The notes: generated by a model not told the origin, from the sequence alone. 64,000 bases of DNA from Longimicrobiales bacterium (GCA_965204735.1 OZ242008.1:904191-968190); one strand, 5' to 3'; positions 29,094 to 42,300 are shown, numbered from the stretch's first letter. Translations and numbers: made by a program.

Positions 29094-32009
29094 TCAGTCA
29101 TCATCGATCAGCCCGAGTTCCCGGAGCGGTTCCAGGACACCGTTTTCCAGCTTGGCCTTGTCGAGCGCACCTTTCGCCTCGACGTTGATGGAGATCCTGT
29201 CGGCCAAGGCCGCGAGGTTGGCGAGAGCGTTCCACGCGCCGTAGAGGGTGTCCCGATCTGCGCTGAACGAAAGAGCGACAGCGTCCGCATCCAGGGTGGC
29301 CGGCGTCGTCGAAGCACTTGGCTCGGGGCTGTCCGGCGTCTCGCGTACCAACCCGGTGCTGAGCTCGGGGCTCGACCAAAGTTCCGCTCCGTCAACAGCT
29401 TCGGGCTGAGCGGGAAGCGCGGCCGGGAGGATCAAGAACCCCGAATCGAGATCGATTTCGTCCTCGGCTACGCCGCGGTCGAAGGCGACTTGGCTCGTGT
29501 CGATTCGATAACGGCCGTCCTCGCCAAGGGTCGGTCGGCCCGTGAAGTAGCCGAAGAAGCTGTTCTCGACGCCACGGGCGATGGCTCTGCGCACCACGTT
29601 GCCGGAAAGCAAGCGCGGGAAGCCAAGGAAGGAGAAGAACCCGGCAACCACCCGGGAGGTCGGAATTCCCGGCTCGGCGGATTCGACTTCTCCCAACCTG
29701 AACAGCTCGACGATCTTCCCCGGTGCCACGTCTTCGAAGACTCTGCGGTGCACCATCGTCAGCAGCTCCATCATGCGATCGTGGATCCGGGCGCGCTTCT
29801 TCTCGTCGAGGGTCGTCTGGAGCGGCCGACCTCTCATGCCGACGGCGTCCAACGACAGCGAACCGCTGTCCGTCGTCGGCAGCCGGATTTCTTCGTACAA
29901 CTTAAGCATCGCGGATTCGACCGCCGTTCTTTCGGTGGCGTCTCGTTCTCTGAGCTGACCCCTCTGCGCATCTGTAAGGTTGTGCTGCCGCCACCTCTGC
30001 AGGACCCGTTCGACGGCCGTCAGGTAGCGGACAGAGCGGCGAAGGCTCTCGACTTGGTCAGCCGACGGCACGGCGAGTCCAAGGCCATTGCGGAATTCGC
30101 GGGTACGGTTCCCGTGGTTCTCACAGAGATCTCTAGCTGTTTCTTTTTGCTCCCCCGTGGACTTGGCTGCGAACTCGAGCGGCAGATACGCGATCAGGAA
30201 CCGAGATTCCTGGTCTGGTACGTCCGCCGATGTGGCCGGCCACACGATCGCCGAGCGCTGGCCCGCAAGCCTCTCTTCGATCAGCGTCTTTATCTTGGTC
30301 CTGATACGGCCCTCGTCCCGGCCCACCGCTTCGGCTTCCTGCTCGACCAGCAACGTGACGTTGGGGTCCCGCTTGAAGCAGTACCGAACGCCGTCGAAGT
30401 GCAGGTAGAGACACTGTTCCTTGAGCTCCTTGAGACAGGCCTGAACGGTGGTGCTGTCGAGGTCTGGACCGACGCCGATGCTCAGCAGGTCGGGCTCGCT
30501 GATCCCGGGCGGCAACAGATCGCCGGCCGTGTCTTCCGAGCGGCGCAGGCCGCCGAAGGAATACATCAGCATGCATGTTGCCAGACGGGTAGCCGAGTGC
30601 TTGCCGGCCTCGGAGGTCACCTCCCGCGCGCGTCGGTCGTCGATCCGGCGGGTGCGAGCGTTTGTGCCGACGAAGTCATGCTCCAGACAAGCCTGAAAAT
30701 CCTCCCGCTGTCCGACCTCTTTGAAGAAGGCGAGGCGTACATCCGCGTCGTGCACGGGAACGTCGCCCGGGCCGAGCAAGAGGCGCGAGCTGCCGGCACG
30801 GTGAGCAGCGCGCAGGCAGGAAGCGAGAAACCGCAGGGCACCGCGAGTTCTCTGGAAATCGGGAATGGCCGCCCAACGCTCCCGCATCACGTCGATCAGG
30901 GCCGGATGGAATGGATAGGAAGACTGGATGCGATTCTGGAGCACCAAGCCGTCCTCTTCCGCCTGCTGCCGTTCCGACTCGCCGTGCGCTCGGGCGCGCC
31001 GCATCTGAGTGACTACGTCTCCGTAAGCCTTGGCGACGCTTCCCGCCACTTCCCGGTCCGGGGCTCCAGCCAGTAGCCGCCGCTGGATCACATTCAGGAT
31101 CTCGTTGCCCTCGACGGGCTCCCGCCGCTGGTCCTTGCGCGCCGCGAGATGCTCCACTGTGCGGAGCAGGCCCGTGTACTCGAGGGATTCGCGGTTGCTC
31201 GACTGCAACGAGTATACGAGCACCGCGTTATCCACGTTGCCGACCGCGACCGTAAGGCGTTTCAGAAATGAAAGCGTCTCGTCCCGAAGGGTGGTCTGCT
31301 CGATGCGCACCCCGCCAGCGCTAATGAGGTACTCCAGAACCTCGTCCAGGAGGATCAGGCTCGGGCCGTGCTTGAGCAGCTCGATGATCTGGTCTCCGCC
31401 TGGAGCAACTCGGCTATTGTCGTGCTCCCGGACGATCTCGTAGCCTTCCCGGCCCGCAAGTGCCCAAGCGATCCACCCCCAGACGGTCTTCGCGACGAAG
31501 CTCTCCTGCGGCACACGCTTTCCGACTCGAGCGTCAAAGAACTGCCCGTCGACGACTGCCACCCGTACTCCCTCCGGCCGCGGAAGTCCCGTTGCCTCCG
31601 GCAGTGCATCCAGGGCGGCCCTTGATCGGGCGCTGTGTAGCAGCGCGGCCAGCGTGTGCGACTTACCTCCGCCGAACGGTGTCAGCAACTTGAGCACGCG
31701 GTTGCCCTGGGAGCCTGCCAGCCGTCCCAGCACGTCCTCAAGCAGTGACTTCAGGCCGCCGGTAAGGTACGATGTCCCGAAGAAGCTGTCGGCGTCCCGG
31801 TAGACGACCGGAACACGTGGCAACGCCGAAGTCGGAACCTCGAGGTCCCTTCCTATCAGGTGGTCGGCCAGTGCCCCCAGGTCGAGTGCGAAGACGTCCT
31901 CCGAGAATTCTTCCGAGAGCACGTCAGGGTGCAGGTCTACGCATTGCAGCCAGGGTCGCCTAGCTACGTCCATGACTGTCGTTCTCCTGTGTTTAGGTTG
32001 GCTGGCCAT
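29094..32009 (-). CDS. DUF499-family P-loop ATPase
   Basis: Walker A is 'LTPFGGGKSHTLAAL' and Walker B is 'SLILLDEVLEY'. At 971 aa its N-terminal layout is typical of DUF499. RBS ggagaggg lies between the PIWI stop and ATG 32009. Confidence 0.75.
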   Translation of the reverse strand: MASQPKHRRTTVMDVARRPWLQCVDLHPDVLSEEFSEDVFALDLGALADHLIGRDLEVPTSALPRVPVVYRDADSFFGTSYLTGGLKSLLEDVLGRLAGSQGNRVLKLLTPFGGGKSHTLAALLHSARSRAALDALPEATGLPRPEGVRVAVVDGQFFDARVGKRVPQESFVAKTVWGWIAWALAGREGYEIVREHDNSRVAPGGDQIIELLKHGPSLILLDEVLEYLISAGGVRIEQTTLRDETLSFLKRLTVAVGNVDNAVLVYSLQSSNRESLEYTGLLRTVEHLAARKDQRREPVEGNEILNVIQRRLLAGAPDREVAGSVAKAYGDVVTQMRRARAHGESERQQAEEDGLVLQNRIQSSYPFHPALIDVMRERWAAIPDFQRTRGALRFLASCLRAAHRAGSSRLLLGPGDVPVHDADVRLAFFKEVGQREDFQACLEHDFVGTNARTRRIDDRRAREVTSEAGKHSATRLATCMLMYSFGGLRRSEDTAGDLLPPGISEPDLLSIGVGPDLDSTTVQACLKELKEQCLYLHFDGVRYCFKRDPNVTLLVEQEAEAVGRDEGRIRTKIKTLIEERLAGQRSAIVWPATSADVPDQESRFLIAYLPLEFAAKSTGEQKETARDLCENHGNRTREFRNGLGLAVPSADQVESLRRSVRYLTAVERVLQRWRQHNLTDAQRGQLRERDATERTAVESAMLKLYEEIRLPTTDSGSLSLDAVGMRGRPLQTTLDEKKRARIHDRMMELLTMVHRRVFEDVAPGKIVELFRLGEVESAEPGIPTSRVVAGFFSFLGFPRLLSGNVVRRAIARGVENSFFGYFTGRPTLGEDGRYRIDTSQVAFDRGVAEDEIDLDSGFLILPAALPAQPEAVDGAELWSSPELSTGLVRETPDSPEPSASTTPATLDADAVALSFSADRDTLYGAWNALANLAALADRISINVEAKGALDKAKLENGVLEPLRELGLIDDD

Positions 32010-32025
32010 CGGTCCGACCCTCTCC

Positions 32026-35000
32026 TTACAGGAACCATGGCGTGTTCTCCAGCGACGGGTGCAGCTCGAACGGTTCCGACTGTCGCAAGAACGCCGCGGT
32101 CAAATAGGCGATGTCCTTGGCGTACTTGAGTGTTATTGGCTCTCCACAAAACGCGTCGGTGGACGCCCAGTTCAGCTTCGTAAGGCTCAACACCTGAAGC
32201 GCCAGCACCCGCAAGTCCGGCCGACTGCCACGGTCGTTCGGTCTCTCAATCCATGCTGCTACCTCCAGTGGTCTTGCCGTCCCCATCATGCGACGAAACG
32301 GATTGTAACCTGTGGTGGACAGGTATAGCTTGTTGGTACCCACCTCAACGTAACTCCCTCGACGAAGGCTCCCATCCGTCTCCGGCCTATCATCGTAAAA
32401 GCGAACGTTGTGATGGGAATTGACCGAGACGAAAGCAAAGGTGCCCTCCGGGCGAACAGTTCGCGCCGATCGAAGAATCGCCTTCCGGTCGGCTCGTGCA
32501 AACTTCGCTGAATACTGGAACACCACGCGGGGAGTCGACGACAGTTGGGAATCTAGCCTCTTCAACACATCCTTGGCCAACTCGGCGAGGCGGAGATGTC
32601 GATCCTCAAAGTCAAAATAAGATGTGTTGCCCCGGTAAAACTCCCATCTTCCATATTGGTTGAACACGCTAGCAAAACCCATGATCCGACGGCCATCTCT
32701 GGACTGCGTGTAGGACAACCCCACAAAAAAATCCGCCTCTGGAATCGCATCCGGCAATACCCACGGCCGGACGCCGCACTTTGCACAAATGTTCAAGGCT
32801 AGATTCAGATCTTTCCAATCTGGATTCTCAAGCGTTGGCGTGTCGACCATCTGACATGGTACGCCTCGTTCCAACAGCAGTCTCTTATTGACGTAGTACG
32901 GTGCCAGGTGGTCGTCTCGAGCATATCCCTCTTCGGGGGTATGGACAAGGAAAATGGATCTAGGATGAAGGTTGGCTCGACTCCTCTGTCGCTGATGCAA
33001 GAGACGTTCAAGTTCTGCATGAATATCATCAACATGGCTCACCGTAGCAATCCCCGAATACCAGAATTTTGTCGCAAACGTTCGTTCGGAGCCGCGATAC
33101 TTGTACCGACCTCCAATCAAACGTTCGATCAGGCCTTCCATTCCTTGACGGACTGCAGTCAGACAAACCGGTACAAGCTCAATCTCCTGTGGGTCATCGC
33201 CATAGGAGCCATACTGTGTGATGCCGGCCCGGACATCCGGTGACAGCTGGCGCTGCCGAAACTCCACTTCCGGCTCTGGGAGTCGCCGAACGGTCAGTTC
33301 CTTTTCCGAAGGTCGCAGTCGTTCGGAAAGTCGAATCGGGTTGGTAGCGATATCGACGTCAAGATCGCAACATCGCAAAGGAAACAACTTGTCCGACAGA
33401 TATTTCACGCTTGCCAGAATCTTTTGAGCCCTCTCCCTAGCGGAACCCGGTCTCGTAACCAAGCTATGCTCTCGAATCGCAGCGGCAAGATCGAACGACG
33501 GTTCCTCCTTGTGCAGCATAGACTTCAACATCTCCACAGTGCAAATGGGAATGACGTCACTGATAGGGATAGTTTCTACCGTGCCGGTGTCAAGGAATCG
33601 TACTTCCGCAAACTCATCGTTAAATCCAGACAGATGTCCCCTGCGCCACTGTCCATTGTTTGCTATGCAACGATGGCCATCAAGTCTGGCTCGTGCAAAA
33701 TGCTGCTTCACAACCGTGAGATTTCTTACGTTGAGAGCAACGCATCTGTAATCGATACACAAATAGAAGCGTTGACCATACTGCCGGACCTGAAATTCGT
33801 ATGCCGGATAGAGTCGCACAATAGACCTCACCCCAACCGGTGTGCCGATCTCAGTGCGCCTCATGTGTGCAAGTATTCTGCTGAATCCATCTCGGTGTAT
33901 GAACCATCCATTTCCTTCTAACGCATCGCGAAGCGTTCGCACAAGCTGCCCATAACGTGATCCAAATACCTCATACCCTACCACGTTGTCCTGTTGCCGA
34001 AATCTCAACAGAAACAAATTGCTGAATTCCGTTGCGTTATCGTTGTTTGCCGCCGCTAGGAGCGCGGCTTCGCGCTCTTCCGCCCTGTTCTCAATCTGGA
34101 TCAATGTCTCGTTCGAAAGGAGACGATATGAGGGAGCCGGCAACCCGAGGGTCTCCATCGCCGTAACCATCTGCTTCGTGCCCTCGCTAATGGCCTGCAC
34201 ATAGGCCACACCACTCGGATCTCTCATTAGCTTCAGCCATTCTAGAAGCTTAGTATTCCTAGGCATCGAATCAAGTATGACGTCTGCCAACGAAAAACGC
34301 GGTGGTGGATCAGTGTCTCGCTGAATTATCCGGCCTGGATTCTTCACCACGAATGCATCCGTGTACGCCTCGCATTCAATCGGCACCCCGGTTCGATAGT
34401 CCCTATGCGCTAAGGCGTTCACGAGTGCTTCGTCAATGACGGTATAAGGAAATTCGGGCTCTTCGACGAAGCCACCGGTTGGCCGTCGCTTTTGATAGCG
34501 CTTAAAGAATGCGGACTCTCTGAAGAATGTCCTCGCCTCCCGGATCTGTTTCGTAACCGGACCTGTGAATTTTTGATCGAATGTCGGGAGACCACGTCTG
34601 GCATGGTCGTTGACCACCACTCCAAACCGCATTAGGCGAATGTGAGCTGCCGGAAGGACACGTTGCGGATTTGATCCAAAGAACAGAAGTCCGGCATATG
34701 TAAACCAATAGTCGTCATCGCGGCGAACCAATGCACCTGCCTCATAGAGCAGTCGTTCATCCGAGAAGCGTCTGGTTGCATCGGGGGAAAACACCTTGCG
34801 AAATTCTTTCAGAACGTCATCCGAAAGATCTGCAGGATCGTAGGGGCAGCAGAACGCGTTCTCGAAGTCGGTAAGGTTTTTTCTGTCCCGAAGCCGATCA
34901 CGCATCGCCTGCGTGACCAGGACGTTTTGAGGTCCGCGTCGCTCCCAAGCCTTCGGCCTAGCCCGAAGCGTCTCGCAAATGGCATTGGTCGCATAGGGGG

Positions 35001-35511
35001 CAAATAACAGACAAATAGTGTTGCTTTGGTCGGAATCATCGCGACATTCGTAAAGTCTAGCTTCGACGGCCTGATTGTGAAGGAGGCTCCCAATGTCAGT
35101 GAGGCTGTTTTTCTGACCTTCTGTCAGGTGGTTGACGCCTGCGACGTTGCCGTTGGACTCAATTCCGATCACCAGCAACCCACCTCTAACGTTGCTGTTG
35201 GCGAAGGCCGAAATGGTCTCGGTGATTCCGTCCCGGAGCTTCTTCAGTTGGTTTGTGAGCTCCCTGGGAGGGCTCCCCTTGCGGCCCGCAGCCTTACGAT
35301 CGAAGTGCTGGCCCTCGAAATCGTCATCCGAGGACTGGGTCAAGAAGCCCCAGTGACTTGCGGGATCGTCGTAGACTGCCCGTGGGGAGGGTTCCATCAG
35401 CACTTCCTCTTCGTGGGACGCCCAAGACGGCAGAGCCGGAATCGCCCAAAGGTTGCGGGCTTGGCCGTGCGTTTCCACCACCGGCGGTTCGCCGCTCTCA
35501 TCGGTCGTCAT
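32026..35511 (-). CDS. Schlafen/AlbA_2 + HATPase_c_4 N-terminal module fused to a catalytically inactive prokaryotic Argonaute (MID-PIWI)
   Basis: AlbA_2 shows as 'FEGQHFDRK...ISAFANSNVRGGLLVIGIESNGNVAGV' and HATPase_c_4 as 'IDEALVNALAHRDYRTGVPIECEAYTDAFVVKNPGRI'. The MID pocket has 'YYVNK...CQMV...ICAKCG'. PIWI shows as 'LNLALNICAKCGVRPWVL', 'FFVGLSYTQ' (no catalytic Asp) and 'EPITLKYAKDIAYL'. The start is uncertain: 35586, 35511 or 35397, the last with RBS gaggaag. Confidence 0.8.
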   Translation of the reverse strand: MTTDESGEPPVVETHGQARNLWAIPALPSWASHEEEVLMEPSPRAVYDDPASHWGFLTQSSDDDFEGQHFDRKAAGRKGSPPRELTNQLKKLRDGITETISAFANSNVRGGLLVIGIESNGNVAGVNHLTEGQKNSLTDIGSLLHNQAVEARLYECRDDSDQSNTICLLFAPYATNAICETLRARPKAWERRGPQNVLVTQAMRDRLRDRKNLTDFENAFCCPYDPADLSDDVLKEFRKVFSPDATRRFSDERLLYEAGALVRRDDDYWFTYAGLLFFGSNPQRVLPAAHIRLMRFGVVVNDHARRGLPTFDQKFTGPVTKQIREARTFFRESAFFKRYQKRRPTGGFVEEPEFPYTVIDEALVNALAHRDYRTGVPIECEAYTDAFVVKNPGRIIQRDTDPPPRFSLADVILDSMPRNTKLLEWLKLMRDPSGVAYVQAISEGTKQMVTAMETLGLPAPSYRLLSNETLIQIENRAEEREAALLAAANNDNATEFSNLFLLRFRQQDNVVGYEVFGSRYGQLVRTLRDALEGNGWFIHRDGFSRILAHMRRTEIGTPVGVRSIVRLYPAYEFQVRQYGQRFYLCIDYRCVALNVRNLTVVKQHFARARLDGHRCIANNGQWRRGHLSGFNDEFAEVRFLDTGTVETIPISDVIPICTVEMLKSMLHKEEPSFDLAAAIREHSLVTRPGSARERAQKILASVKYLSDKLFPLRCCDLDVDIATNPIRLSERLRPSEKELTVRRLPEPEVEFRQRQLSPDVRAGITQYGSYGDDPQEIELVPVCLTAVRQGMEGLIERLIGGRYKYRGSERTFATKFWYSGIATVSHVDDIHAELERLLHQRQRSRANLHPRSIFLVHTPEEGYARDDHLAPYYVNKRLLLERGVPCQMVDTPTLENPDWKDLNLALNICAKCGVRPWVLPDAIPEADFFVGLSYTQSRDGRRIMGFASVFNQYGRWEFYRGNTSYFDFEDRHLRLAELAKDVLKRLDSQLSSTPRVVFQYSAKFARADRKAILRSARTVRPEGTFAFVSVNSHHNVRFYDDRPETDGSLRRGSYVEVGTNKLYLSTTGYNPFRRMMGTARPLEVAAWIERPNDRGSRPDLRVLALQVLSLTKLNWASTDAFCGEPITLKYAKDIAYLTAAFLRQSEPFELHPSLENTPWFL

Positions 35512-38314
35512 CCTCCAGGGCGAGTTCCGTCTGTCCGAAGATAGGGCCTTCGCTCTCTCGATCATAAGCGGCCCCTTCAACGACACTTCGCCAATTGGCG
35601 TTCAGCTTGGAGAGGGCGCGCAACTCGGTGGTCGTGGTCGCGTCCTGCGCCTCGGGGCGTGAAAGCACTGGCGCACAGAGTGCCTGAGTGACCAACCGGA
35701 GCTGCTCCTGGCTCGGTCGCGCCGACTTCAGGAACTCCCGGACCTGGATCGGCCGGTGGTCGAGCAACCAGAGCAGCCGGTGGATGACGTCGATTAGCGG
35801 GGCCTGTCGGCCGTTCGTACTGATGCCCAGCCCGTCGTCGCTACCGCGCTCCTCGAAGGTCCGGACGCGGAATTTGCTCCTGGACTTCTCGACCAGGCAC
35901 GGAGGGGGGCCGGAGAGCCCCTGTGGACCGTCGATCTCGATGCCCTGCGGATAGCAGAACACGTACGCGTCGCCGGCCTGGATGAGGGATTCACGATAGG
36001 TAAACCTCCATAGGACGTAGAAGCGCGTCTCTGGGTCCACGGAGCCGACGGCTGCTCCACGCAAACCGAAGATCTCGTCAAGCATGACATCAAGTACGAC
36101 GCCCTCGACGTCGCGGAGGTAGAGTTCGGCGGGCACGATTTCGCCGTTGGCGTACTCGACCTTGGCGAACCGCGTGTAGGCACGCAGGCCCGCGCCGACC
36201 GCAGCCATAAGGAGGTCTGCACCTCCAATTCCCTTGCCTCCCGCCCATAGGGTCGTCACGCGTTCGCGTGCGATGTGGAGAAGCTCCGGCTTTACCTGTG
36301 CCTCGTACCGCCCGGTCTCGGTCGTTTCGCGGCGGCGAGCGACGAAAAAGATGCTGTCGGAAAGCGCGGCGGCACCGAGCGCGTTGACCCTTCCTCGAGA
36401 CTCCGTCTGCACCGGCCATGCCTCGGTGACCGTGAGCCCCGCCCCAACTAGCGCACGAATCAATGTGGCCCATCCCTCCGTCGTTCGGTGGGCGTAGACG
36501 CAGACCAGTGGGGCACCCGGCTTCAGGACGCGACGGGCTTCTGCGAACGAGCGGCGCATCATGTCTTGATAGTGCATGTTCGCCTTCTTTGCGTCCCCGC
36601 CGTGCTCGCTCGGCTGTGCGACCGCCTCGCGCCGCTTGGGCGGCACAGGCAACGTGAAGTGCTCGGGGTAGAGATCACCGACGATGCGCTTCAGCCATAC
36701 GTAGAAGAACGCGGACAGATCCGCGTAGTATATGCTGCTATAGTACGGCGGGTCGGTGACCACCGCGTCGAAGGTCTCGTCGTTGTAGAACAGCTTTTCC
36801 GCGTTGCCGCGCGCAACAACCGATGGCTGGCCGACCTTGGCGAGCTCTCGAATACAGTACGCTTCCCGGTCCAGCGCGAAGGGGAGGCAGCCCTGGGTGT
36901 GCGCTAACCCATTGATCTCTGAGAAATCGTAAATCATCTTCAGGGCTTGCCGATCACCAATAGCTCCTATCGTCCTCTGCACTCTGGGCTCCCACCGAGA
37001 GAACTTGTTGAATGTGACGACGAAACGGCCGAACGCCATCGCGAAATAGGTCGACAGCGCTCGTGCCCGGTCCTCGGCCATACCCTCCTTCAGCATTTCG
37101 GCGTGGGCCTGTCGAATGTTTTTGATCAGGGTCAACAGGACCAGTAGCTGTCGAGGCGTGAATAGTTCGCGATACGTATTCACTCCATAGTTAGGAAGTT
37201 GGTCACCAAGTTTCCCTTGAAGCATACCACCAGGAGGCTCACAACCGAGTTCCCCCTCAAGCTTCTCCAAACGCTGCTCTATCTCGTCCGCCGGCAACTC
37301 TACCGTGACATCCGGGGGCAAGTATACTTTGGTTCGCCTTTTCCTCGATTTACCTTCTGGCGGCAACGAAACCACTACGGCAGCAAGCGATTCTTTCATC
37401 CTGTCGACTGTCGCCATTTCCTTGACGTGATCGGCAGGGGCAGGTGTATTGCATGCGACGCAGACCGCTTGTCCCGCGCCAGTCTGCGCCTCTTGTTGGG
37501 AGACTTCTCGGATGGACGCACCGGAAACGATGTCCCAGCAAAGTCGGTTGCCATCTTCGATTTGGGGAACAGCGGCAACGGCTCCGTTCTTCTTGCGTAG
37601 CCAAGCTTGGCGAACGAGCGGCACCGACGTGCCGCATCCCGGCCGACGACAGGGCACAGTGCGCGCCCAGATGCAAGCGATCAGGGTTGCTTCGCGCGAC
37701 GGAGTGGGTGAATCTGATGTCCGGTTTCCGAAGAGGGTGATCTGGGAAGCGACCGCGTCCGATTCAGGTATCCGGACGTCTGGGTAAAGGTCGCCAACAT
37801 CCTTCTTCACGCGTTCGAGGACAACCCGACCCCAGTGTTCGAAGTCGTCGGCCAACTTCGGTCCGAACGTCTGTGGATACGCTAGCGTACATAGTTCGAT
37901 CAGGTGGGCTACCGGGTTGTAGTCGAGCGCGTGGCTCTCGCAACCGAGACGGGCGGCCTCGAGCGGAATCGCACCTCCGCCCGCAAATGGGTCCAGCACC
38001 TTCGGCGTCCGGCCACCGTGCGCCTCCAGGATGTGTCTGCGAGCCTTCTTGACGACTTCCGGATCCGGCTTGAACGCAGCGAGGTTGGCAACGAAAGACG
38101 CGGCTTCCCTACGCTCGTCGTCCGATTCCGGCGCAGCGACTAGGGCGGCGTAGACCGCGGCGCGCGATGCGGTGATCGGACGGCGAGCGGGCCAGTAGTG
38201 GATCATCTCCACGTATCGCCGGGGATGCAGCTTCTCGTGGGATGCGATGGCGTTGAGCGCGTCAAGAGGAAGGTAGTCCTCGATCAGTCGGCGGTCATCC
38301 ATGATCCATGTCAT
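35498..38314 (-). CDS. DUF1156-type DNA methyltransferase (DPPY motif, Zn-ribbon insert)
   Basis: It has the DUF1156 N-terminus 'RLIEDYLPLDALNAIASHEKLH...IHYWPARRP', motif I 'VLDPFAGGGAIPLEAARLG' and motif IV 'VVTDPPYYSS'. Cys pairs 'CRRPGC' and 'CVAC' are present. The start is at 38314 or 38302, and both overlap the helicase 3' end. Confidence 0.8.
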   Translation of the reverse strand: MTWIMDDRRLIEDYLPLDALNAIASHEKLHPRRYVEMIHYWPARRPITASRAAVYAALVAAPESDDERREAASFVANLAAFKPDPEVVKKARRHILEAHGGRTPKVLDPFAGGGAIPLEAARLGCESHALDYNPVAHLIELCTLAYPQTFGPKLADDFEHWGRVVLERVKKDVGDLYPDVRIPESDAVASQITLFGNRTSDSPTPSREATLIACIWARTVPCRRPGCGTSVPLVRQAWLRKKNGAVAAVPQIEDGNRLCWDIVSGASIREVSQQEAQTGAGQAVCVACNTPAPADHVKEMATVDRMKESLAAVVVSLPPEGKSRKRRTKVYLPPDVTVELPADEIEQRLEKLEGELGCEPPGGMLQGKLGDQLPNYGVNTYRELFTPRQLLVLLTLIKNIRQAHAEMLKEGMAEDRARALSTYFAMAFGRFVVTFNKFSRWEPRVQRTIGAIGDRQALKMIYDFSEINGLAHTQGCLPFALDREAYCIRELAKVGQPSVVARGNAEKLFYNDETFDAVVTDPPYYSSIYYADLSAFFYVWLKRIVGDLYPEHFTLPVPPKRREAVAQPSEHGGDAKKANMHYQDMMRRSFAEARRVLKPGAPLVCVYAHRTTEGWATLIRALVGAGLTVTEAWPVQTESRGRVNALGAAALSDSIFFVARRRETTETGRYEAQVKPELLHIARERVTTLWAGGKGIGGADLLMAAVGAGLRAYTRFAKVEYANGEIVPAELYLRDVEGVVLDVMLDEIFGLRGAAVGSVDPETRFYVLWRFTYRESLIQAGDAYVFCYPQGIEIDGPQGLSGPPPCLVEKSRSKFRVRTFEERGSDDGLGISTNGRQAPLIDVIHRLLWLLDHRPIQVREFLKSARPSQEQLRLVTQALCAPVLSRPEAQDATTTTELRALSKLNANWRSVVEGAAYDRESEGPIFGQTELALEDDDR

Positions 38315-41300
38315 CCGGTCTCCCGCAAACCTCTGCCTGATCCACCGTCTCCTGATCGAAAGCGGCCTGTTCCACAGCCCTTGCCGGGAGATCATAGTAT
38401 CGTGCGGCCACGACCTCCTTCTTGGCGTAGTCCAAGTGCTTGGCGGGGTTCTGGATCATCAGCGGAGTCGGGTCCGGGTTGTCCAACGGATCCCAGACGA
38501 CATAAAGCCAGTAGGTGTCGGCGAGCTGTTGCGCCTTGTACCACTCGTTGGTGGTCAGCCGGACGGGCTGGCCGCGTTGTCGGCCCTTGACCTCGATGCG
38601 GCGCACACCGGTCACAGGGTCCCGGTAGCCCGTCTGTGGGTCCGGCGGCGCCAGGCTTCGAACGTCGAAGCCGATCTTCTGGTGCCCGACCCGCTCGCAC
38701 TCGCGGCCCTGGGCCTCCTCATAGGCGACGACAACGTCCTCCGCGGCAACCTCGACCCGCTGCGTCAACGCCGGGTCGGGTTCCTCTCTGAATACGAGGG
38801 CGCGCTCCGTATCCGTGTCGGGAGGCAGTACCAAGCAGCTCGCTATGTGCCGCACGGGACCGTGCCGGGCGATGCGAAGCCGCTCAATACCGGCCAGGCG
38901 CTCCTCCTGTGTGCGTTGCAGATCGGCAAGATCCTGTTCCGCACGCTGACGTGCCAGCGTTACTTCCGGCTCTTTTGGCTCCCGGGCCCGTAGCCCCATC
39001 ACCCGATCCTGCGAGGCACGGGCACGAGCGGCGAAAGACTTCTCGAGATAGTCGCGCGCTACTTCCGCATAGTGGCCGCGTTCGGCCTGGGCGTCTCGCC
39101 GCCGCTGCATCTGGATCGTCGCCTTGACATAGTCGCCGACGAGGCCTTGGTCGATCCCGGGCAAGGTCACGGACGGACTCGGATGGGCAGGCAGATCGAT
39201 GAGCGCGTCCGGCGGCACTGTGCTGAAACGATCCGCAACGGCGATATCTTCGCCGCCCTCCTCCCGCACGGCCACCAGCTCGGAATGTATCGTCGTCGCC
39301 TCGCCCTTGGTGTTCTGGCCCTGTACTGGAATCTCGTAGAAATGGAGACGGTAGGGAGATTTCCCGTGCGGGTCCACGTACACGGCCGTCTGGCCCGCAA
39401 GCCGCTCGCCAAGGCTGTCTTGCAACCTCTCGTCCACGGCGGCGTAGAGCGGATGTCCGGGACCGACGAGTACGGCGTCAAGGTGCCGATCCTGCTCCAG
39501 GTGCTCCTTGTAGAAGGTCAGCTTGCGGTAGCTCGCCTCGGGCTTCCCATGGCGCCGGACCGCGGCAAGGCGCTCGGAGCGGAGCTCGGCGCGCACGTGC
39601 TCGATCCGCCAGAGTCCGTCCGCTCTTGGCTCTGTCCGCAGGCCCACCGCCCTGGCAGCGTTCAAGAAGTGGGATTCGACATAGCGAGGCATGAGCCGCC
39701 GCTCCTCCGTTTCCAAGTTTGCCCGTGCGAAGGACGAAAAATCTACGTGGGCGCGGGCCAATGCAATCCCAGTCGCGTCTTCGTACAGATCGAGCTGCTT
39801 CGGATCGATCCGCTCAATCGCATCGAGATAGTCGTCGAGGCGGCGCGGCTCATAGGCCACCTCCCGAAGCATTTCCGGCAGGTTGACCTTGTTCAGGGAG
39901 AGCACTTCGCCGACGACGTCGAACACTCGATCGCCGAGCGCATCCCGCATCCGGTTCAACTTGCTCAGCAGGCGCTCCAGAATACGTCCTTCGATGACTG
40001 GCTGACCGTCCTGCGACGAAGTGGCGACGAAATTGAAGGCGTACACATCGCGAGACTGCCCGATGCGGTGGATGCGGCCAAGTCGCTGTTCGAGACGGGT
40101 TGGGTTCCAAGGCAGATCGTAGTTGACCATCAGGTGACAGAACTGGAGGTTGATGCCCTCTCCGGCGGCCTCCGTCGCCACGCAGATCTGGCGGCTAGTT
40201 CGGAAATCTTCTTGAGCCTGCTTGCGCTCGTGCGGGTTCATCCCGCCGTGAATTTCGCATGTCGAATACCCCCAGGACTCGAGATGGCTCCTCAGGTGGT
40301 TCAGCGTGTCCCGGTGCTCGGTGAAGATAAGGAGCTTACCGCGTCCGTCCTTCAGTTCGTCGAATTCCGTTCGTTCCAGGCACTCGCGCAATGCGACGAG
40401 CTTGGAATCGAGGCCGCCTTCGCGCAATCGGCCTACGCTCGTCGCGAGGTCCCGTAGCGCCGCGACCTCGGCCCGTAGCTGACCCAAGGCGAGGGCCGCT
40501 GTAGTCTCGTCGATGAGACAATCGCGAGATGCGTCGTCGAGGTCGTCTTCGTCCTGTTCTACGTCGGCAACTTGACCTGATGCCTGCGCGAGTCGTCTCG
40601 CCCGCTGGGCAGGGGGCAAGTTGTCGAGTTCGTCAACCAATTCTCTTAGCCGTGTTCGACGACGAATCAGCGATTCGTGAATTGCGCGGGTAGAGCTGGC
40701 CAAGCGACGTTGAAATACCGTGCGCACGAGAGCGACGCTGTTCTTTCGCCTTCCGGTCGTTTGTGGAAGGAACTCATTGATGTATGCCGTTACCGCCTTG
40801 TAAACCGCGTACTCTTGTTCGCTGAGCGCAAAGCTGACCGTGTGTACGTGGCGGTCCGCAAACAACCGACGCCCATGCAGGTCCTTGAGGTCTTCCTTGA
40901 GCCGTCGAAGCGACCACGGGCAATCTTGGCCGAGTTGTAGTACATCGCGTCGAACATGAGCGGCTTCTTCGCCTACGCGATGGGGTTCGGGGAACAGGTC
41001 CCGGTCGATAAGCCGGATGAAGTGTGCGAACCGGTCATCGTCACCGTGATGAGGCGTGGCTGTCAAGAGCAGCAGGTGGTCGCAATGTTCGGAGAGCCGC
41101 TCGGCGAGCTGGTAGCGCTTCGTGCGCTCAATCCCGTCCCCGCGACCGGTGGAGTACTTGGTACGAGCACTGCACTTGTGGGCTTCGTCGATGATGACGA
41201 GGTCCCAGTGCTGCCGCCACACGCGCTCCCGCACCTCGTCCCGCTTGGCGTAGTCGATGGAAGACACGATCTGCGTCTCTCGCTCCCATAGGTTTAGGAA

Positions 41301-41930
41301 CTGCTGCTGGTCGTTCGCGGAGTGAACGACCTGGAACGTTTCATTGAAGAAGCGGAGTAGCTCGTCCTGCCACTGAATGGTCAACGGTGCCGGAACGAGG
41401 ATCAGGCAACGCTCGACGGCCTCTCGGAGCTTGAGTTCCTTGATGAGAAGGCCGGCCATGATCGTCTTCCCCGCGCCCGGATCGTCGGCGAGCAGGAAAC
41501 GCAGGCGCGGCTGTGGTAGCATCCTACGGTAAACCGCGTCGATTTGATGAGGCAGAGTGCGGATGCCGGAAAGGCTGACCGCAAAGTGACGATCGAAGGT
41601 GTACGCCAAGCGGATACGAGCCGATTCGATCAAGAGCCGCATCTCCTCGGGATCGGCGGGTTGCGCCGCAGCGACTTCCCGTGGGTGATCACCCGACGCT
41701 ACAGCAGCGGCGGCTTCCTCCGAAGAGATGATGGCCTCTTCAAGCGCTCCGTCGGGCAGGCGCACCCGGCATTCGTAGCCGGCGGAATCAGGTGCCGCAA
41801 GCGTTCTGACGTCTTCGAGGACGACAGGTACATCGAAGTGCCCCGGTAGCGAGAGTCGTCGTCCGACCCATTCCGACAACTGGGCCTTCGTCTTCCCGTT
41901 CGTCTCGTTCTTGAGTGCCTGTAGCGTCAT
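38295..41930 (-). CDS. SNF2-family helicase with C-terminal DUF3883/restriction-endonuclease-like domain
   Basis: Motif I is 'LADDPGAGKT', II is 'VIIDEAHK', III is 'LLLTATPHHG' and VI is 'QRLGRIHRIGQ'. The C-terminus reads 'RIEVKGRQRG..VRLTTNEWYKAQQLADTYWLYVVWDP'. The start is at ATG 41930; GTG 41993 is also possible. Confidence 0.8.
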   Translation of the reverse strand: MTLQALKNETNGKTKAQLSEWVGRRLSLPGHFDVPVVLEDVRTLAAPDSAGYECRVRLPDGALEEAIISSEEAAAAVASGDHPREVAAAQPADPEEMRLLIESARIRLAYTFDRHFAVSLSGIRTLPHQIDAVYRRMLPQPRLRFLLADDPGAGKTIMAGLLIKELKLREAVERCLILVPAPLTIQWQDELLRFFNETFQVVHSANDQQQFLNLWERETQIVSSIDYAKRDEVRERVWRQHWDLVIIDEAHKCSARTKYSTGRGDGIERTKRYQLAERLSEHCDHLLLLTATPHHGDDDRFAHFIRLIDRDLFPEPHRVGEEAAHVRRDVLQLGQDCPWSLRRLKEDLKDLHGRRLFADRHVHTVSFALSEQEYAVYKAVTAYINEFLPQTTGRRKNSVALVRTVFQRRLASSTRAIHESLIRRRTRLRELVDELDNLPPAQRARRLAQASGQVADVEQDEDDLDDASRDCLIDETTAALALGQLRAEVAALRDLATSVGRLREGGLDSKLVALRECLERTEFDELKDGRGKLLIFTEHRDTLNHLRSHLESWGYSTCEIHGGMNPHERKQAQEDFRTSRQICVATEAAGEGINLQFCHLMVNYDLPWNPTRLEQRLGRIHRIGQSRDVYAFNFVATSSQDGQPVIEGRILERLLSKLNRMRDALGDRVFDVVGEVLSLNKVNLPEMLREVAYEPRRLDDYLDAIERIDPKQLDLYEDATGIALARAHVDFSSFARANLETEERRLMPRYVESHFLNAARAVGLRTEPRADGLWRIEHVRAELRSERLAAVRRHGKPEASYRKLTFYKEHLEQDRHLDAVLVGPGHPLYAAVDERLQDSLGERLAGQTAVYVDPHGKSPYRLHFYEIPVQGQNTKGEATTIHSELVAVREEGGEDIAVADRFSTVPPDALIDLPAHPSPSVTLPGIDQGLVGDYVKATIQMQRRRDAQAERGHYAEVARDYLEKSFAARARASQDRVMGLRAREPKEPEVTLARQRAEQDLADLQRTQEERLAGIERLRIARHGPVRHIASCLVLPPDTDTERALVFREEPDPALTQRVEVAAEDVVVAYEEAQGRECERVGHQKIGFDVRSLAPPDPQTGYRDPVTGVRRIEVKGRQRGQPVRLTTNEWYKAQQLADTYWLYVVWDPLDNPDPTPLMIQNPAKHLDYAKKEVVAARYYDLPARAVEQAAFDQETVDQAEVCGRPDDMDHG

Positions 41931-42300
41931 TTGGGCGTGTGATTGGCCAGGAGACAATCCAAGACAGCACGTCAAGATACTACTAGGGAACACGCCGGAT
42001 GTCCACCGGGGCCTGGAGAGAGCGGCCTACCACGGCAGAAACGGTCATGTTTGGTCGCATATCCCTATATGATCCAGGGTCCTGAACGGGCTGCTGAGGT
42101 AGGCGACGGCGACGAAGTTCTCGGTGGACGCGGTACCGCGGGCCCGGAGTTTCGCCGCCTAGACCAGCGAGTTCATGGCCTCCAGTATCCCGTTTCTGAT
42201 CCGCGAGCGGAACCACGCTACGCGATGCCCCTCGTCCGGCCGGTCCCCCACAGCCCCGTCCGCCCCGGGCGGAACCCGGAGACCCGGACGCAGGACCGCC

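What the first reader, a model, noticed from the sequence alone, without database searches (positions are those of the whole stretch)
29094..41993. Four-gene operon embedding an Argonaute (PIWI) fusion inside a helicase / DUF1156-methyltransferase / DUF499-ATPase cassette
**What the sequence shows.** Four long minus-strand genes are packed with overlapping or very short junctions.
- The helicase stop (38295-38297) lies inside the MTase 5' end.
- The MTase stop at 35498 overlaps two of the three candidate PIWI starts (35586 and 35511); the third, 35397, would leave a gap of about 100 nt.
- The PIWI stop and the DUF499 ATG are 14 nt apart, with an RBS between them.

The gene order is:
1. An SNF2 helicase with a C-terminal DUF3883/REase-like module.
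2. A DUF1156 DPPY DNA methyltransferase.
3. A Schlafen(AlbA_2)+HATPase_c_4+MID-PIWI protein.
4. A DUF499 P-loop ATPase.

**Established knowledge (from memory, not verified here).** The helicase/DUF1156/DUF499 trio has been flagged in comparative defence-island surveys as a recurrent R-M-like module whose mechanism is unresolved. DUF1156 methylases also occur in DISARM class 1. Prokaryotic Argonautes are normally described as separate guide-directed systems, paired with SIR2, TIR, nuclease or membrane effectors.

**Inference.** A catalytically dead pAgo sits in the middle of a methylation-based cassette. This suggests a composite system in which nucleic-acid-guided target sensing by PIWI is coupled to ATP-driven helicase, ATPase and nuclease-like effectors. 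Methylation would provide self-protection. I do not recognise this arrangement as a named system.
Basis: partly seen in the sequence, partly recalled or inferred. Interest (0 to 1): 0.9.

Follow-up and report, generated by a model that had tools for sequence, protein, structure and literature searches.

The report
Schlafen-Argonaute nested inside Hma defence operon
A known self-contained anti-phage gene (a Schlafen-ATPase-Argonaute fusion) was inserted long ago into the middle of a known restriction-like three-gene operon (Hma), so this is two stacked immune systems sharing one operon, not a new four-part machine.

Summary
They are hmaA (SNF2 helicase with a NOV_C nuclease), hmaB (DUF1156 methylase with a DPPY motif), a 1123-aa Schlafen + GHKL-ATPase + inactive long-B Argonaute, and hmaC (DUF499 ATPase). 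Both parts already have names. The trio is the Hma system, also called the Type-1 BREX-related system. The Argonaute belongs to the SLFN-pAgo family, shown in a 2026 preprint to defend on its own. In sister loci the Argonaute is flanked by direct repeats of about 265-280 nt that duplicate the hmaB-end/hmaC-start junction. The window keeps eroded relics of the same scar. The arrangement recurs in at least 10 diverged loci, all within one Argonaute subclade (at least 71% identity). Only 2 of 80 species-level genome loci for the family have it. A nested Hma relative lacks the Argonaute and has an intact ATGA junction. Three Argonautes of the subclade sit outside Hma, and one still carries an hmaB fragment. 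The Argonaute is under purifying selection and has lower GC than its neighbours. Hma operons are a published insertion hotspot for defence genes. Best reading: two independent, co-expressed layers. Interest is moderate to low.

The parts
38295..41930 (-). hmaA: SNF2/DEAH helicase with a C-terminal NOV_C PD-(D/E)xK nuclease. Likely 1211 aa from ATG 41930; the maximal ORF starts at GTG 41993. Motifs in 1232-aa ORF numbering: GAGKT173, DEAH269, QRLGRIHR636, D1110...E1134-x-K1136.
   Evidence: (PADLOC HmaA 5e-189)
38472..38753 (-). NOV_C (formerly DUF3883) nuclease domain of HmaA.
   Evidence: PF13020, 3e-15, aa 1081-1174 of the 1232-aa ORF; nickase activity of this domain shown for Halomonas HmaA in PMC11232893
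35498..38314 (-). hmaB: DUF1156 N6-adenine-type DNA methyltransferase with motif I VLDPFAGGG and motif IV DPPY. Its start overlaps the hmaA stop (ATG 38314, or ATG 38302 as ATGGATGA).
   Evidence: (HmaB 9e-108)
35397..35501 (-). Eroded relic of a duplicated hmaC 5' end (insertion scar). It now forms a 34-codon bridge ORF whose ATG overlaps the hmaB stop (ATGA) and whose TGA overlaps the pAgo ATG (TGATG).
   Evidence: (window_up extends to q219 of the L098 junction)
32026..35397 (-). SLFN-pAgo: 1123-aa Schlafen + GHKL ATPase + long-B Argonaute (N-PAZ-MID-PIWI with no slicer site). GC is 0.536 against 0.62-0.64 for the hma genes.
   Evidence: (PDLC02394, 1547 bits)
34921..35313 (-). Schlafen (AlbA_2) nuclease domain: E28-x4-D33-x-K35 motif and SAFAN box at residues 63-67. 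Position 71 is Arg.
   Evidence: motif definition from the preprint
34108..34500 (-). GHKL (HATPase_c_4) ATPase domain with the N-box E323-x3-N327.
   Evidence: 22 bits, below cut-off; 3lmm_A, 3e-16
32029..33240 (-). MID-PIWI region. Guide 5'-end pocket residues Y834, K838, Q849 and K873 are conserved. The first slicer Asp is replaced by the invariant S895.
31974..32025 (-). Spacer between the pAgo stop and the hmaC start. Its 3' part aligns with the hmaB 3' end, so it is a relic of the right-hand repeat. It carries the AGGAGA ribosome-binding site for hmaC.
29094..31973 (-). hmaC: DUF499 ORC/Cdc6-like AAA+ ATPase, 959 aa from ATG 31973. P-loop GGGKS and Walker B LILLDE are present.
   Evidence: HmaC 1e-95; P0121, 100% identity, 959 aa

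Best explanation
The locus is an Hma operon, also called a Type-1 BREX-related operon. It is a restriction-modification-like system made of hmaA, hmaB and hmaC. A complete, self-sufficient SLFN-pAgo defence gene was inserted once, in an ancestor, exactly at the hmaB|hmaC junction. The two systems most likely act as independent layers that share one transcript.

**Layer 1 (Hma).** The HmaB methylase marks host DNA. The HmaC ATPase helps recognise or scan DNA. The HmaA SNF2 translocase-nickase attacks unmarked invader DNA.

**Layer 2 (SLFN-pAgo).**
- The inactive Argonaute core loads small RNA guides and recognises complementary invader DNA.
- The Schlafen domains then cut tRNA and abort the infection.

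**Insertion history.**
- The insertion duplicated about 280 nt of the junction.
- Recombination between the two copies can pop the gene out again and restore the ATGA-coupled junction.
- In the window lineage the scar has shrunk to a short bridge ORF that probably couples pAgo translation to hmaB.

**Basis of each step.**
- Shown here: gene and motif identity, the scar, presence/absence polymorphism, purifying selection and the GC difference.
- From the literature: that RzAgo and HmaA each work alone.
- Inferred: the biochemical steps in this organism, co-transcription, translational coupling and repeat-mediated excision.
For: **Identity and integrity.**
- PADLOC, Pfam and NCBIfam hits for all four genes.
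- Catalytic and binding residues are intact and invariant in 74 family members.
- Hma motifs are intact.
- The fold search returns RsAgo at 1e-21 and an AlbA_2-HATPase protein (3lmm) at 3e-16.

**Insertion scar.**
- Direct repeats of 265-280 nt (86-90% identity) flank the pAgo in L001 and L002. Each repeat is the hmaB 3' end plus the hmaC 5' end.
- The left repeat ends at the same hmaC position in 5 loci. The right repeat starts within 17 nt in 7 loci.
- The window keeps eroded relics of both copies.

**Foreign composition.** The pAgo gene is 5.5-15 GC points below the adjacent hma genes in every embedded locus, and 7-15 points in all but L088.

**Independence of the two systems.**
- L098 has hmaB and hmaC overlapping by ATGA with no pAgo. 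Its HmaC nests inside the pAgo-bearing clade with 98% bootstrap.
- The pAgos of L081 and L087 lie outside Hma but nest inside the embedded clade with 100% bootstrap. L006 also lies outside Hma and falls inside the subclade, with weaker internal support (76-84%).
- L087 retains 130 nt of the hmaB 3' end at E = 3e-30.
- Only 2 of 80 genome loci have Hma flanks, and 56 of the 80 have at least 3 kb on both sides.
- Eight more distant Hma loci have no pAgo.

**Not a dead passenger.** pAgo dN/dS is 0.10-0.23, against 0.10-0.34 for the hma genes.

**Literature.**
- RzAgo alone protects cells, and the authors saw no conserved partner.
- HmaA alone defends, and about 66.5% of hma systems carry inserted genes.
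- Sister loci carry Gabija, toxin-antitoxin pairs and a Schlafen-ATPase-TPR gene between hmaA and hmaB.
Against: - The pAgo-in-Hma arrangement has persisted through substantial divergence (71-91% protein identity, dS up to about 1.4) in at least 10 loci at several chromosomal positions. In the window it has become more compact. That could reflect selection for keeping the two together.
- Other SLFN-pAgo subclades also sit inside other methylase-containing operons: type I RM, and an N6_N4 methylase with a UvrD-like helicase. This hints at a non-random affinity.
- The roles of HmaB and HmaC are not experimentally established. Liu et al. (2024) saw no methylation-type protection effect for T4.
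- Autonomy was shown for RzAgo, which by comparison with other Bacteroidota members (L043, L069) is probably only about 41-46% identical. It was not shown for this protein.
- No expression data are available, and the promoter/terminator scan was uninformative.
Confidence: 0.75

Rival explanations
1. Selected synergy without a physical complex. The two systems are biochemically separate, but linkage is favoured because they help each other. For example, the pAgo may act as an abortive-infection backstop when methylated or anti-restriction phages escape Hma. Alternatively, Hma nicking or translocation on invader DNA may boost guide or target availability for the pAgo.
For: - The linkage has lasted a long time and the junctions have become compact, with a bridge ORF.
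- SLFN-pAgos are nested independently in at least three kinds of methylase-containing operon.
- L081's pAgo lies next to a DrmC-like gene.
- A 2025 preprint reports Schlafen-ATPase-wHTH genes linked to BREX/BR core loci in at least 1017 taxa and reads them as backup effectors.
Against: - Defence genes cluster for many reasons, and hma is a general hotspot that also takes Gabija, toxin-antitoxin pairs, Septu and PARIS.
- Loss and escape events leave both partners intact.
- At least 75% of family loci have no RM-like immediate neighbour in my survey.
Confidence: 0.2
2. True composite system. The Argonaute is the nucleic-acid-guided sensor of a four-protein machine that directs the HmaA helicase-nuclease and the HmaC ATPase to targets, with HmaB methylation preventing self-attack.
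For: - The genes are packed on one strand with overlapping or short junctions.
- The pAgo is catalytically dead and so needs an effector.
- The arrangement recurs in at least 10 loci.
Against: - The pAgo already has a fused, motif-intact Schlafen effector and a GHKL switch, and a family member works alone.
- The scar shows a late insertion into a pre-existing, ATGA-coupled operon.
- A nested pAgo-less Hma exists, and so do Hma-less pAgos.
- pAgo and Hma gene trees disagree. L099's pAgo and HmaB group with L001 while its HmaC groups with L002/L083, each at 100%. L086 has a foreign HmaB.
- Only 2 of 80 family loci are Hma-linked.
Confidence: 0.07
3. Inert passenger. The pAgo is a non-functional or unexpressed hitch-hiker left by a recombination accident.
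For: It is clearly an insertion with lower GC than its neighbours. No promoter of its own was detected.
Against: - The full-length ORF is intact in every locus examined.
- dN/dS is 0.10-0.23.
- All catalytic and binding residues are conserved.
- A conserved ribosome-binding leader and stop-start overlaps precede the ATG.
Confidence: 0.02

Closest known systems
Hma system (PADLOC, Payne et al. 2021, PMC8565338; Liu et al. 2024, PMC11232893), also called the 'Type-1 BREX-related (BR) system' (bioRxiv 10.1101/2025.10.09.681413); earlier noted as the COG1743 methylase / DUF499 / SWI2-SNF2-nuclease operon (PMC7641849)
   Same: - The same three proteins are present: SNF2 helicase with NOV_C nuclease, DUF1156 methylase and DUF499 ATPase.
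- The gene order is the same and PADLOC hits are strong (5e-189, 9e-108, 1e-95).
- hmaA and hmaB are translationally coupled.
   Different: The hmaB|hmaC junction is ATGA-coupled in relatives such as L098. Here it is interrupted by a 3.4-kb Argonaute gene.
SLFN-pAgo family (RzAgo of Runella zeae; Kuzmenko et al., bioRxiv 10.64898/2026.05.29.728809, May 2026)
   Same: - The architecture matches: AlbA_2 Schlafen + GHKL ATPase + PAZ-MID-PIWI without slicer residues.
- The length matches (1123 aa, within 1071-1187).
- The motifs match: E(x)4DxK, SAFAN, the GHKL Glu and the MID Tyr/Lys.
- A full-length PADLOC pAgo model matches (PDLC02394).
   Different: - The authors reported no conserved linkage with specific partners. 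Here one subclade (at least 71% identity) is mostly embedded between hmaB and hmaC.
- Position 71, which probably corresponds to RzAgo D72, is Arg in the window.
- Activity of this protein is untested.
Defence-gene insertion hotspot within hmaABC (Liu et al. 2024, PMC11232893)
   Same: Other defence genes lie inside the hma operon. About 66.5% of hma systems carry insertions, including Septu, PARIS, Ppl, an AAA_21 gene pair between hmaB and hmaC in Halomonas, and GmrSD-like genes. Sister loci here carry Gabija and toxin-antitoxin pairs between hmaA and hmaB.
   Different: An Argonaute was not among the reported cargo. The junction-duplication scar of about 280 nt and the pop-out polymorphism were not described.
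SLFN-pAgo within a type I R-M operon in Poribacteria (Fig. 1f of the same 2026 preprint), and Schlafen-ATPase-wHTH auxiliary effectors of BREX/BR loci (2025 BREX preprint)
   Same: A Schlafen-ATPase-bearing defence gene is nested among the genes of a methylation-based restriction operon. I confirmed hsdR-pAgo-hsdS in L056 and L065.
   Different: The host operon is of a different kind (type I R-M or BREX, not Hma). The BREX/BR auxiliary proteins lack the Argonaute core.
Effector-coupled inactive pAgo systems (short pAgo SPARTA/SPARSA/SPARDA; long-B BPAN/BPAS/BPAM)
   Same: A catalytically dead Argonaute acts as a guide-dependent sensor that switches on a toxic effector, leading to abortive infection.
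   Different: In those systems the partner effector is obligately co-encoded across the family. Here the effector is fused into the same polypeptide, and the neighbouring Hma genes are not conserved partners.

Membership tests
SLFN-pAgo (long-B Argonaute with Schlafen-ATPase module) | N-terminal Schlafen AlbA_2 domain with the E(x)4(D/E)xK nuclease motif and the SAFAN box | tested here: met
   Pfam SLFN_AlbA_2 at 9e-9. E28, D33, K35 and S63-A-F-A-N67 are present and conserved in 74 family members.
SLFN-pAgo (long-B Argonaute with Schlafen-ATPase module) | GHKL-type ATPase domain (PF13749) with a catalytic Glu | tested here: met
   HATPase_c_4 scores 22 bits, below the 26-bit cut-off. The N-box E323-x3-N327 is invariant. 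The fold matches the AlbA_2+HATPase_c_4 protein 3lmm_A at 3e-16. Many homologs carry precomputed PF13749 hits.
SLFN-pAgo (long-B Argonaute with Schlafen-ATPase module) | Full long-pAgo core (N-PAZ-MID-PIWI) | tested here: met
   Foldseek hits to full-length RsAgo (1e-21, about 815 aligned columns against a 755-residue target) and to other long Agos. MID-PIWI sequence hits in the PDB. Caveat: the model has mean pLDDT 67.8 and a poor PIWI C-terminus. PAZ is inferred from alignment coverage and was not inspected residue by residue.
SLFN-pAgo (long-B Argonaute with Schlafen-ATPase module) | No DEDX slicer tetrad in PIWI | tested here: inconclusive
   The position of the first catalytic Asp (the GxD motif) is the invariant S895. 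The other three tetrad positions were not mapped. The preprint states that the family lacks the tetrad.
SLFN-pAgo (long-B Argonaute with Schlafen-ATPase module) | Belongs to the monophyletic clade that contains RzAgo | tested here: inconclusive
   The full-length PADLOC model PDLC02394 matches at 1547 bits. The family scan recovered Bacteroidota members (Spirosoma, Niastella) at 41-46% identity over the full length. The RzAgo sequence itself was not available for comparison.
SLFN-pAgo (long-B Argonaute with Schlafen-ATPase module) | RNA-guided DNA recognition that activates ATP-dependent tRNA cleavage and phage defence | not testable with these tools
   Needs biochemistry and phage assays. Only conservation of the residues mutated in RzAgo could be checked.
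Hma / Type-1 BREX-related system | HmaA: SNF2-family helicase fused to a C-terminal NOV_C PD-(D/E)xK nuclease | tested here: met
   Pfam SNF2-rel_dom, Helicase_C and NOV_C; PADLOC HmaA at 5e-189 over nearly the full length. Motifs I, II and VI and D...ExK are present.
Hma / Type-1 BREX-related system | HmaB: large DUF1156/COG1743 N6-type DNA methyltransferase | tested here: met
   DUF1156 at 2e-10 and N6_N4_Mtase; PADLOC HmaB at 9e-108; DPPY and FxGxG-like motifs present.
Hma / Type-1 BREX-related system | HmaC: DUF499 ORC/Cdc6-like AAA+ ATPase | tested here: met
   DUF499 at 2e-30; PADLOC HmaC at 1e-95; NCBIfam DUF499_antiphage at 6e-55, below the equivalog cut-off; P-loop GGGKS and Walker B LILLDE present.
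Hma / Type-1 BREX-related system | The three genes form one same-strand operon | tested here: met
   The strand and order match pAgo-less relatives L089-L098. One foreign gene is inserted, as in about two thirds of hma systems according to PMC11232893.
Hma / Type-1 BREX-related system | Anti-phage activity; methylation-based self/non-self discrimination | not testable with these tools
   Needs phage assays and methylome data.
Obligate pAgo-partner composite system (as for short pAgo + APAZ effector, or long-B pAgo + BPAN nuclease) | The partner genes co-occur with the pAgo across the pAgo family or subclade, and neither is found intact alone among close relatives | tested here: not met
   Only 2 of 80 genome loci are Hma-linked. 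Within the embedded subclade, 3 pAgos have no Hma and 1 nested Hma has no pAgo, and all these genes are intact. Gene trees are incongruent.

The most novel reading that the evidence does not exclude
SLFN-pAgos, and Schlafen-ATPase modules in general, may be selectively recruited into methylation-based restriction operons because the two layers cooperate. Such operons include Hma/BR, type I R-M, an N6_N4-methylase/UvrD module and DISARM-adjacent sites. For example, restriction or translocation activity on unmethylated invader DNA could supply guides or expose target DNA. Alternatively, the Argonaute could fire abortive infection specifically when restriction is evaded. In that case the 280-nt junction repeats would act as portable homology arms. 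They would let the pAgo cassette hop between Hma operons by RecA-dependent integration and excision of a circular intermediate.
Probability: 0.15. Interest if true: 0.65.

Novelty: new member of a known kind. Interest (0 to 1): 0.35.

Why it matters
The result turns a supposedly new four-part guided restriction machine into a clear, datable example of one defence system nested inside another.

- **Annotation.** The locus should be labelled Hma (Type-1 BR) plus SLFN-pAgo.
- **Evolution of defence islands.**
  - It documents an insertion scar, a precise-loss allele and escape events. Together these show that both partners are separable.
  - It extends the published hma insertion hotspot to an Argonaute cargo at the hmaB|hmaC junction.
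  - It qualifies the recent statement that SLFN-pAgos have no conserved partners. One subclade is stably Hma-embedded, and others sit in type I R-M or methylase-helicase operons.
- **Experiments.** The compact four-gene window version is a convenient natural construct. It could be used to test whether an RM-like layer and a guided abortive-infection layer are merely additive or synergistic.

Tried and rejected
- **Pfam Piwi.** Pfam alone did not recover Piwi in the window protein. I did not treat this as refutation because PADLOC, PDB sequence hits, homologs with Piwi hits and the fold search all recover it.
- **TUDOR hit.** The sub-threshold hit at aa 642-683 of the long ORF was ignored as a likely spurious match inside the Argonaute core.
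- **The repeat finder.** It found no repeats in the window. The relics appeared only in the alignment with sister loci.
- **Promoter/terminator scan.** It found no more sites than expected from shuffles and is uninformative for a 60-70% GC organism.
- **Mobile-element markers.** No tRNA gene lies in the window, and no integrase or transposase was found among the ORFs scanned next to the island. A classical integrative element was therefore not supported.
- **Metagenome scan.** Seeding with HmaC gave only 8 distant loci at 55-67% identity. They served as pAgo-less outgroups but were too distant to date the insertion.
- **Bootstrap.** The Biopython bootstrap timed out and was replaced by a numpy NJ bootstrap. 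The trees are distance-based only.
- **Structure model.** The AlphaFold model is of moderate quality (pLDDT 67.8, pTM 0.40). I used it only for fold-level assignment.
- **Not attempted.** I did not determine the source organism. Complex prediction (pAgo with HmaA or HmaC) is not available with these tools.
- **Pseudogene idea rejected.** I considered that L085's split hmaB and hmaC show Hma decay next to an intact pAgo. I did not rely on this, because frameshifts in long-read metagenome assemblies are a likely artefact.

Full report
**1. Observation**

The four long minus-strand ORFs are present at the stated coordinates. They lie in a stretch of lower GC (0.53-0.64) between flanks of about 0.70.

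- ORF 38295-41993 has SNF2-rel_dom, ResIII, Helicase_C and NOV_C (formerly DUF3883).
- ORF 35498-38395 has DUF1156 and N6_N4_Mtase.
- ORF 32026-35586 has SLFN_AlbA_2 and a sub-threshold HATPase_c_4 hit.
- ORF 29094-32009 has DUF499.

Pfam itself gives no Piwi hit for the third ORF. Other evidence for PIWI is strong:
- PADLOC's full-length pAgo model PDLC02394 matches end to end at 1547 bits.
- The C-terminal 250-300 residues match solved pAgo MID-PIWI chains: 9om4_B at 3e-9, short pAgos, RsAgo at 9e-8 and AaAgo.
- Many close homologs carry precomputed Piwi hits.

The junctions are as described. Homology and independent gene calls on identical metagenome contigs refine the starts.
- hmaA starts at ATG 41930 (1211 aa).
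- hmaB starts at ATG 38314 or 38302 and overlaps the hmaA stop.
- The pAgo starts at ATG 35397 (1123 aa).
- hmaC starts at ATG 31973 (959 aa).
- So the pAgo-hmaC spacer is 52 nt, not 14 nt.

**2. What the parts are called**

PADLOC names three of the proteins HmaA (5e-189), HmaB (9e-108) and HmaC (1e-95).
- Hma (helicase, methylase, ATPase) was proposed by Payne et al. in 2021. They found 1638 instances in 26 phyla (PMC8565338).
- It was tested in Halomonas meridiana. HmaA alone defends against T4, and its NOV_C nickase activity is essential (PMC11232893).
- A 2025 preprint reclassifies the same trio as the 'Type-1 BREX-related system' (10.1101/2025.10.09.681413).
- The arrangement had been noted earlier alongside EVE domains (PMC7641849).

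The third gene belongs to the SLFN-pAgo family, described in May 2026 (10.64898/2026.05.29.728809).
- It is a monophyletic long-B group of 1071-1187 residues.
- Members carry an AlbA_2 Schlafen domain, a GHKL ATPase and PAZ-MID-PIWI without the slicer tetrad.
- RzAgo binds RNA guides and recognises DNA. It tetramerises on ATP, cuts tRNA with its Schlafen domain and protects cells on its own.

The window protein has the defining residues.
- The Schlafen nuclease motif E28-x4-D33-x-K35 and the SAFAN box (63-67) are present.
- The GHKL residues E323 and N327 are present.
- The MID residues Y834, K838, Q849 and K873 are present.
- Ser895 stands where the first slicer Asp would be.
- All of these are invariant or nearly so in 74 family members.

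An AlphaFold model (pLDDT 67.8) finds full-length RsAgo as its best structural match (1e-21). It also matches the AlbA_2+HATPase_c_4 protein 3lmm at 3e-16.

The Hma motifs are intact too:
- GAGKT, DEAH, QRLGRIHR and D...ExK in HmaA.
- DPPY in HmaB.
- GGGKS and LILLDE in HmaC.

**3. Does the synteny recur?**

A scan of one genome per species with a family alignment returned 80 loci from many phyla.
- Only L001 and L002 have HmaB upstream and HmaC downstream of the pAgo. Both are Gammaproteobacteria MAGs with pAgos 76-77% identical to the window's.
- 56 of the 80 loci have at least 3 kb on both sides.

I then sampled close pAgo and HmaC homologs from metagenome assemblies.
- This added embedded loci L083, L084, L085, L086, L088, L097 and L099.
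- Four more pairs are inferred from matching contig lengths.
- The four-gene core therefore recurs in at least 10 diverged loci, at several chromosomal positions.
- All of them fall within one pAgo subclade (at least 71% identity).
- Hma relatives at 55-67% HmaC identity have the same gene order and no pAgo.

**4. The pAgo is an insertion**

- *Direct repeats.* In L001 and L002 the pAgo gene is flanked by direct repeats of 280 and about 265 nt at 86-90% identity. Each repeat consists of the last 120-135 nt or so of hmaB plus the first 144 nt or so of hmaC.
- *Shared boundaries.* I mapped the flanks against the uninterrupted junction of L098. The left copy ends at the same hmaC position in five loci. 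The right copy begins within 17 nt in seven loci. This fits one ancestral event.
- *Ancestral junction.* It was an ATGA stop-start overlap.
- *Relics in the window.* Its '100-nt gap' after the hmaB stop begins ATGAGAGCGGCGAACCGCC, a decayed hmaC start. The bases just before hmaC ATG 31973 align with the hmaB 3' end.
- *Composition.* In every embedded locus the pAgo gene is 5.5-15 GC points below its hma neighbours, and 7-15 points in all but L088.

**5. The two systems separate cleanly**

- L098 has hmaB and hmaC overlapping by ATGA with no pAgo. It shares Gabija upstream and IetAS downstream with pAgo-bearing relatives. Its HmaC nests inside the pAgo-bearing clade with 98% NJ bootstrap. That fits precise loss, most simply by recombination between the repeats.
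- The pAgos of L081 (84% identical, the closest homolog outside the window's own 90% cluster) and L087 lie outside Hma. They nest inside the embedded clade at 100% support.
- L087 is flanked by transposases. It still carries 130 nt of the hmaB 3' end right after its pAgo (E = 3e-30).
- L006 (73%) also lacks Hma.
- Gene trees disagree in places. L099's pAgo and HmaB group with L001 while its HmaC groups with L002/L083, each at 100%. L086 has an HmaB from a distant clade. The modules therefore recombine.
- The pAgo is not decaying. Its dN/dS is 0.10-0.23, equal to or lower than the hma genes.

**6. Context from the literature**

- Liu et al. report that about 66.5% of hma systems carry inserted genes. 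These include Septu, PARIS, Ppl, an AAA_21 pair between hmaB and hmaC in all Halomonas, and GmrSD-like genes. They call the region a defence-gene insertion hotspot.
- My sister loci show the same behaviour. Between hmaA and hmaB they carry Gabija (GajA 1e-243, GajB 3e-217), PIN/RHH toxin-antitoxin pairs, a Schlafen-ATPase-TPR protein and unknown ORFs.
- The window is the most compact version, with no cargo other than the pAgo.
- No paper in the searchable library mentions an Argonaute in an Hma/DUF499 operon.
- The SLFN-pAgo authors state that they saw no conserved linkage with specific partners.

**7. Mechanism**

The best-supported reading is two autonomous layers on one transcript.
- *Hma layer.* It works as an RM-like system: HmaB methylates self DNA, the HmaC ATPase senses or scans, and the HmaA translocase-nickase restricts. 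The roles of HmaB and HmaC are proposals from the literature, not shown.
- *SLFN-pAgo layer.* It works as a guided abortive-infection system: an RNA guide recognises invader DNA, ATP drives GHKL tetramerisation, and the Schlafen domain cuts tRNA.
- *Expression.* In the window, the scar has been reduced to a 34-codon ORF. Its ATG overlaps the hmaB stop and its TGA overlaps the pAgo ATG. L097 and L088 show the same design with 23 and 21 codons. This suggests that pAgo translation has become coupled to hmaB. That would be integration at the level of expression, not of protein function.

**8. What keeps the door open**

- The linkage has lasted through considerable divergence.
- A survey of the largest ORF on each side of the pAgo in the genome loci found restriction-type neighbours in about a fifth to a quarter of cases. 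Among 73 upstream neighbours, 14 matched ResIII, 8 HSDR_N and 4 N6_N4_Mtase. HsdS, HsdM and UvrD appeared downstream.
- Poribacteria loci L056 and L065 show hsdR-pAgo-hsdS.
- L004 and L011 have a same-strand N6_N4 methylase just upstream and a UvrD-like helicase just downstream. L005 and L071 share the same ORF layout, although their neighbours were not scanned one by one.
- L081's pAgo abuts a DrmC-like gene.
- The 2025 BREX preprint reports Schlafen-ATPase-wHTH genes with BREX/BR loci in at least 1017 taxa.
- A selected synergy between RM-like systems and Schlafen-based abortive infection is therefore possible but unproven.

**9. Verdict**

- The annotation is correct.
- The 'composite guided restriction machine' reading is not supported.
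- The locus is a new example of a known phenomenon, defence genes nested in the hma hotspot. It has a newly described cargo family and an unusually clear insertion scar.
- Novelty: new member of a known kind. Interest: about 0.35.

Noticed in passing
window 35397-35501 (minus strand); also L097 6506-6577 and L088 9936-10001: A short bridge ORF of 34, 23 and 21 codons respectively. It starts on the hmaB stop (ATGA) and stops on the pAgo start (TGATG). In the window it derives from the decayed hmaC 5' relic. It may couple pAgo translation to hmaB.
   Followed up: partly
L001 9449-9728 and 13401-13680; L002 9677-9940 and 13443-13705: Direct repeats of about 265-280 nt (86-90% identity) flank the pAgo gene. 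Each is the hmaB 3' end plus the hmaC 5' end. They would allow RecA-type pop-out. L098 looks like the precise-excision product.
   Followed up: yes
L087 13479-13565 (downstream of its pAgo): A transposase-flanked SLFN-pAgo outside any Hma operon still carries about 130 nt of the hmaB 3' end (82% identity, E = 3e-30). It therefore escaped from an Hma operon.
   Followed up: yes
L088 3257-7128; L098 3341-7209; L099 1-2668; probably L001 921-4894: A complete Gabija system (GajA 1e-243, GajB 3e-217 in L088) is inserted between hmaA and hmaB in several sister loci. Others carry PIN/RHH toxin-antitoxin pairs (L084, L085) or a Schlafen-ATPase-TPR protein (L086 1044-3020).
   Followed up: partly
L083 16526-20114; the same genes in L002, L098 and L099: An IetAS system (IetA 9e-150, IetS 8e-301) lies directly downstream of hmaC. 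The Hma operon is therefore the core of a larger defence island in those genomes. The window lacks it.
   Followed up: partly
L083 2914-5988 (also L002 4385-5988 and L098 784-2963): Three to four conserved ORFs (438, 304 and 198 aa in L083) lie between hmaA and hmaB. They have no Pfam or PADLOC hits and are candidate unknown defence cargo.
   Followed up: no
L004 7148-15487; L011 7057-15486; same ORF layout in L005 and L071: Another SLFN-pAgo subclade (62% identity; Binatia, Phycisphaerae, Planctomycetota) sits between two same-strand genes. Upstream is an N6_N4 methylase of 930-965 aa, ending about 50 nt before the pAgo. Downstream is a UvrD-like helicase of about 690 aa, starting 25-45 nt after it. 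The flanking families differ from those of Hma.
   Followed up: partly
L056, L065 (similar ORF layout in L057, L059, L078; Poribacteria); L037: The SLFN-pAgo lies between an EcoEI-type hsdR and hsdS of a type I R-M operon. In L037 it lies after a HindI-type hsdR. This matches the Poribacteria example in the 2026 preprint.
   Followed up: partly
L086 7194-10004: The HmaB of this locus is only 44% identical to the window's, while the adjacent pAgo (77%) and HmaC (75%) are close. It groups with a distant HmaB clade (98% bootstrap). The methylase appears to have been swapped within the operon, possibly changing specificity.
   Followed up: partly
window pAgo residue 71 (nt 35185-35187); the same in L097: Arg occupies the Schlafen pocket position that by spacing corresponds to RzAgo D72. 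D72A makes RzAgo hyperactive. The column is E or D in 46 of 74 family members and variable otherwise. The equivalence was not confirmed against the RzAgo sequence.
   Followed up: partly
window-L001 and window-L002 gene comparisons: Synonymous divergence of the pAgo (dS 1.24 and 1.42) exceeds that of the flanking hma genes (0.70-0.89). In addition, the window+L097 pAgo clade is basal in the pAgo tree but nested in the HmaC tree. The cause may be cassette exchange between Hma operons or a composition shift.
   Followed up: partly
L081 367-1221: The closest pAgo homolog outside the window's own 90% cluster (84% identity) is not in Hma. It lies next to a DrmC-like PLD gene (2e-71) and a PhdYeFM-domain gene, so it may sit at the edge of a DISARM-type system.
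   Followed up: partly
L048, L049, L052, L054 (cyanobacteria): These homologs align only from about residue 163 of the query, so they may lack or have replaced the N-terminal Schlafen part. Three of them have an SNF2-type helicase on the opposite strand just upstream.
   Followed up: no
L001 about 9860-9960: A long GC-rich inverted repeat (GGGAGCGCGGGCGTCCCGCCCGC...GCGGGCGGGACGCCCGCGCTCCC) lies between the hmaC relic and the pAgo start. It could be a REP-like element or a terminator.
   Followed up: no
window 42301-43395 (minus strand): A 364-aa ORF with a plausible protein sequence and no Pfam hit lies on the same strand as hmaA and ends about 370 nt before the hmaA start at ATG 41930. Its function is unknown, and it is unclear whether it belongs to the island.
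   Followed up: no
window 27339-28148 (plus strand): A 269-aa ORF with a weak HIRAN-domain hit (1.5e-4, below cut-off) lies near the left edge of the island, about 0.9 kb from the hmaC stop. An SDR gene lies between them.
   Followed up: no
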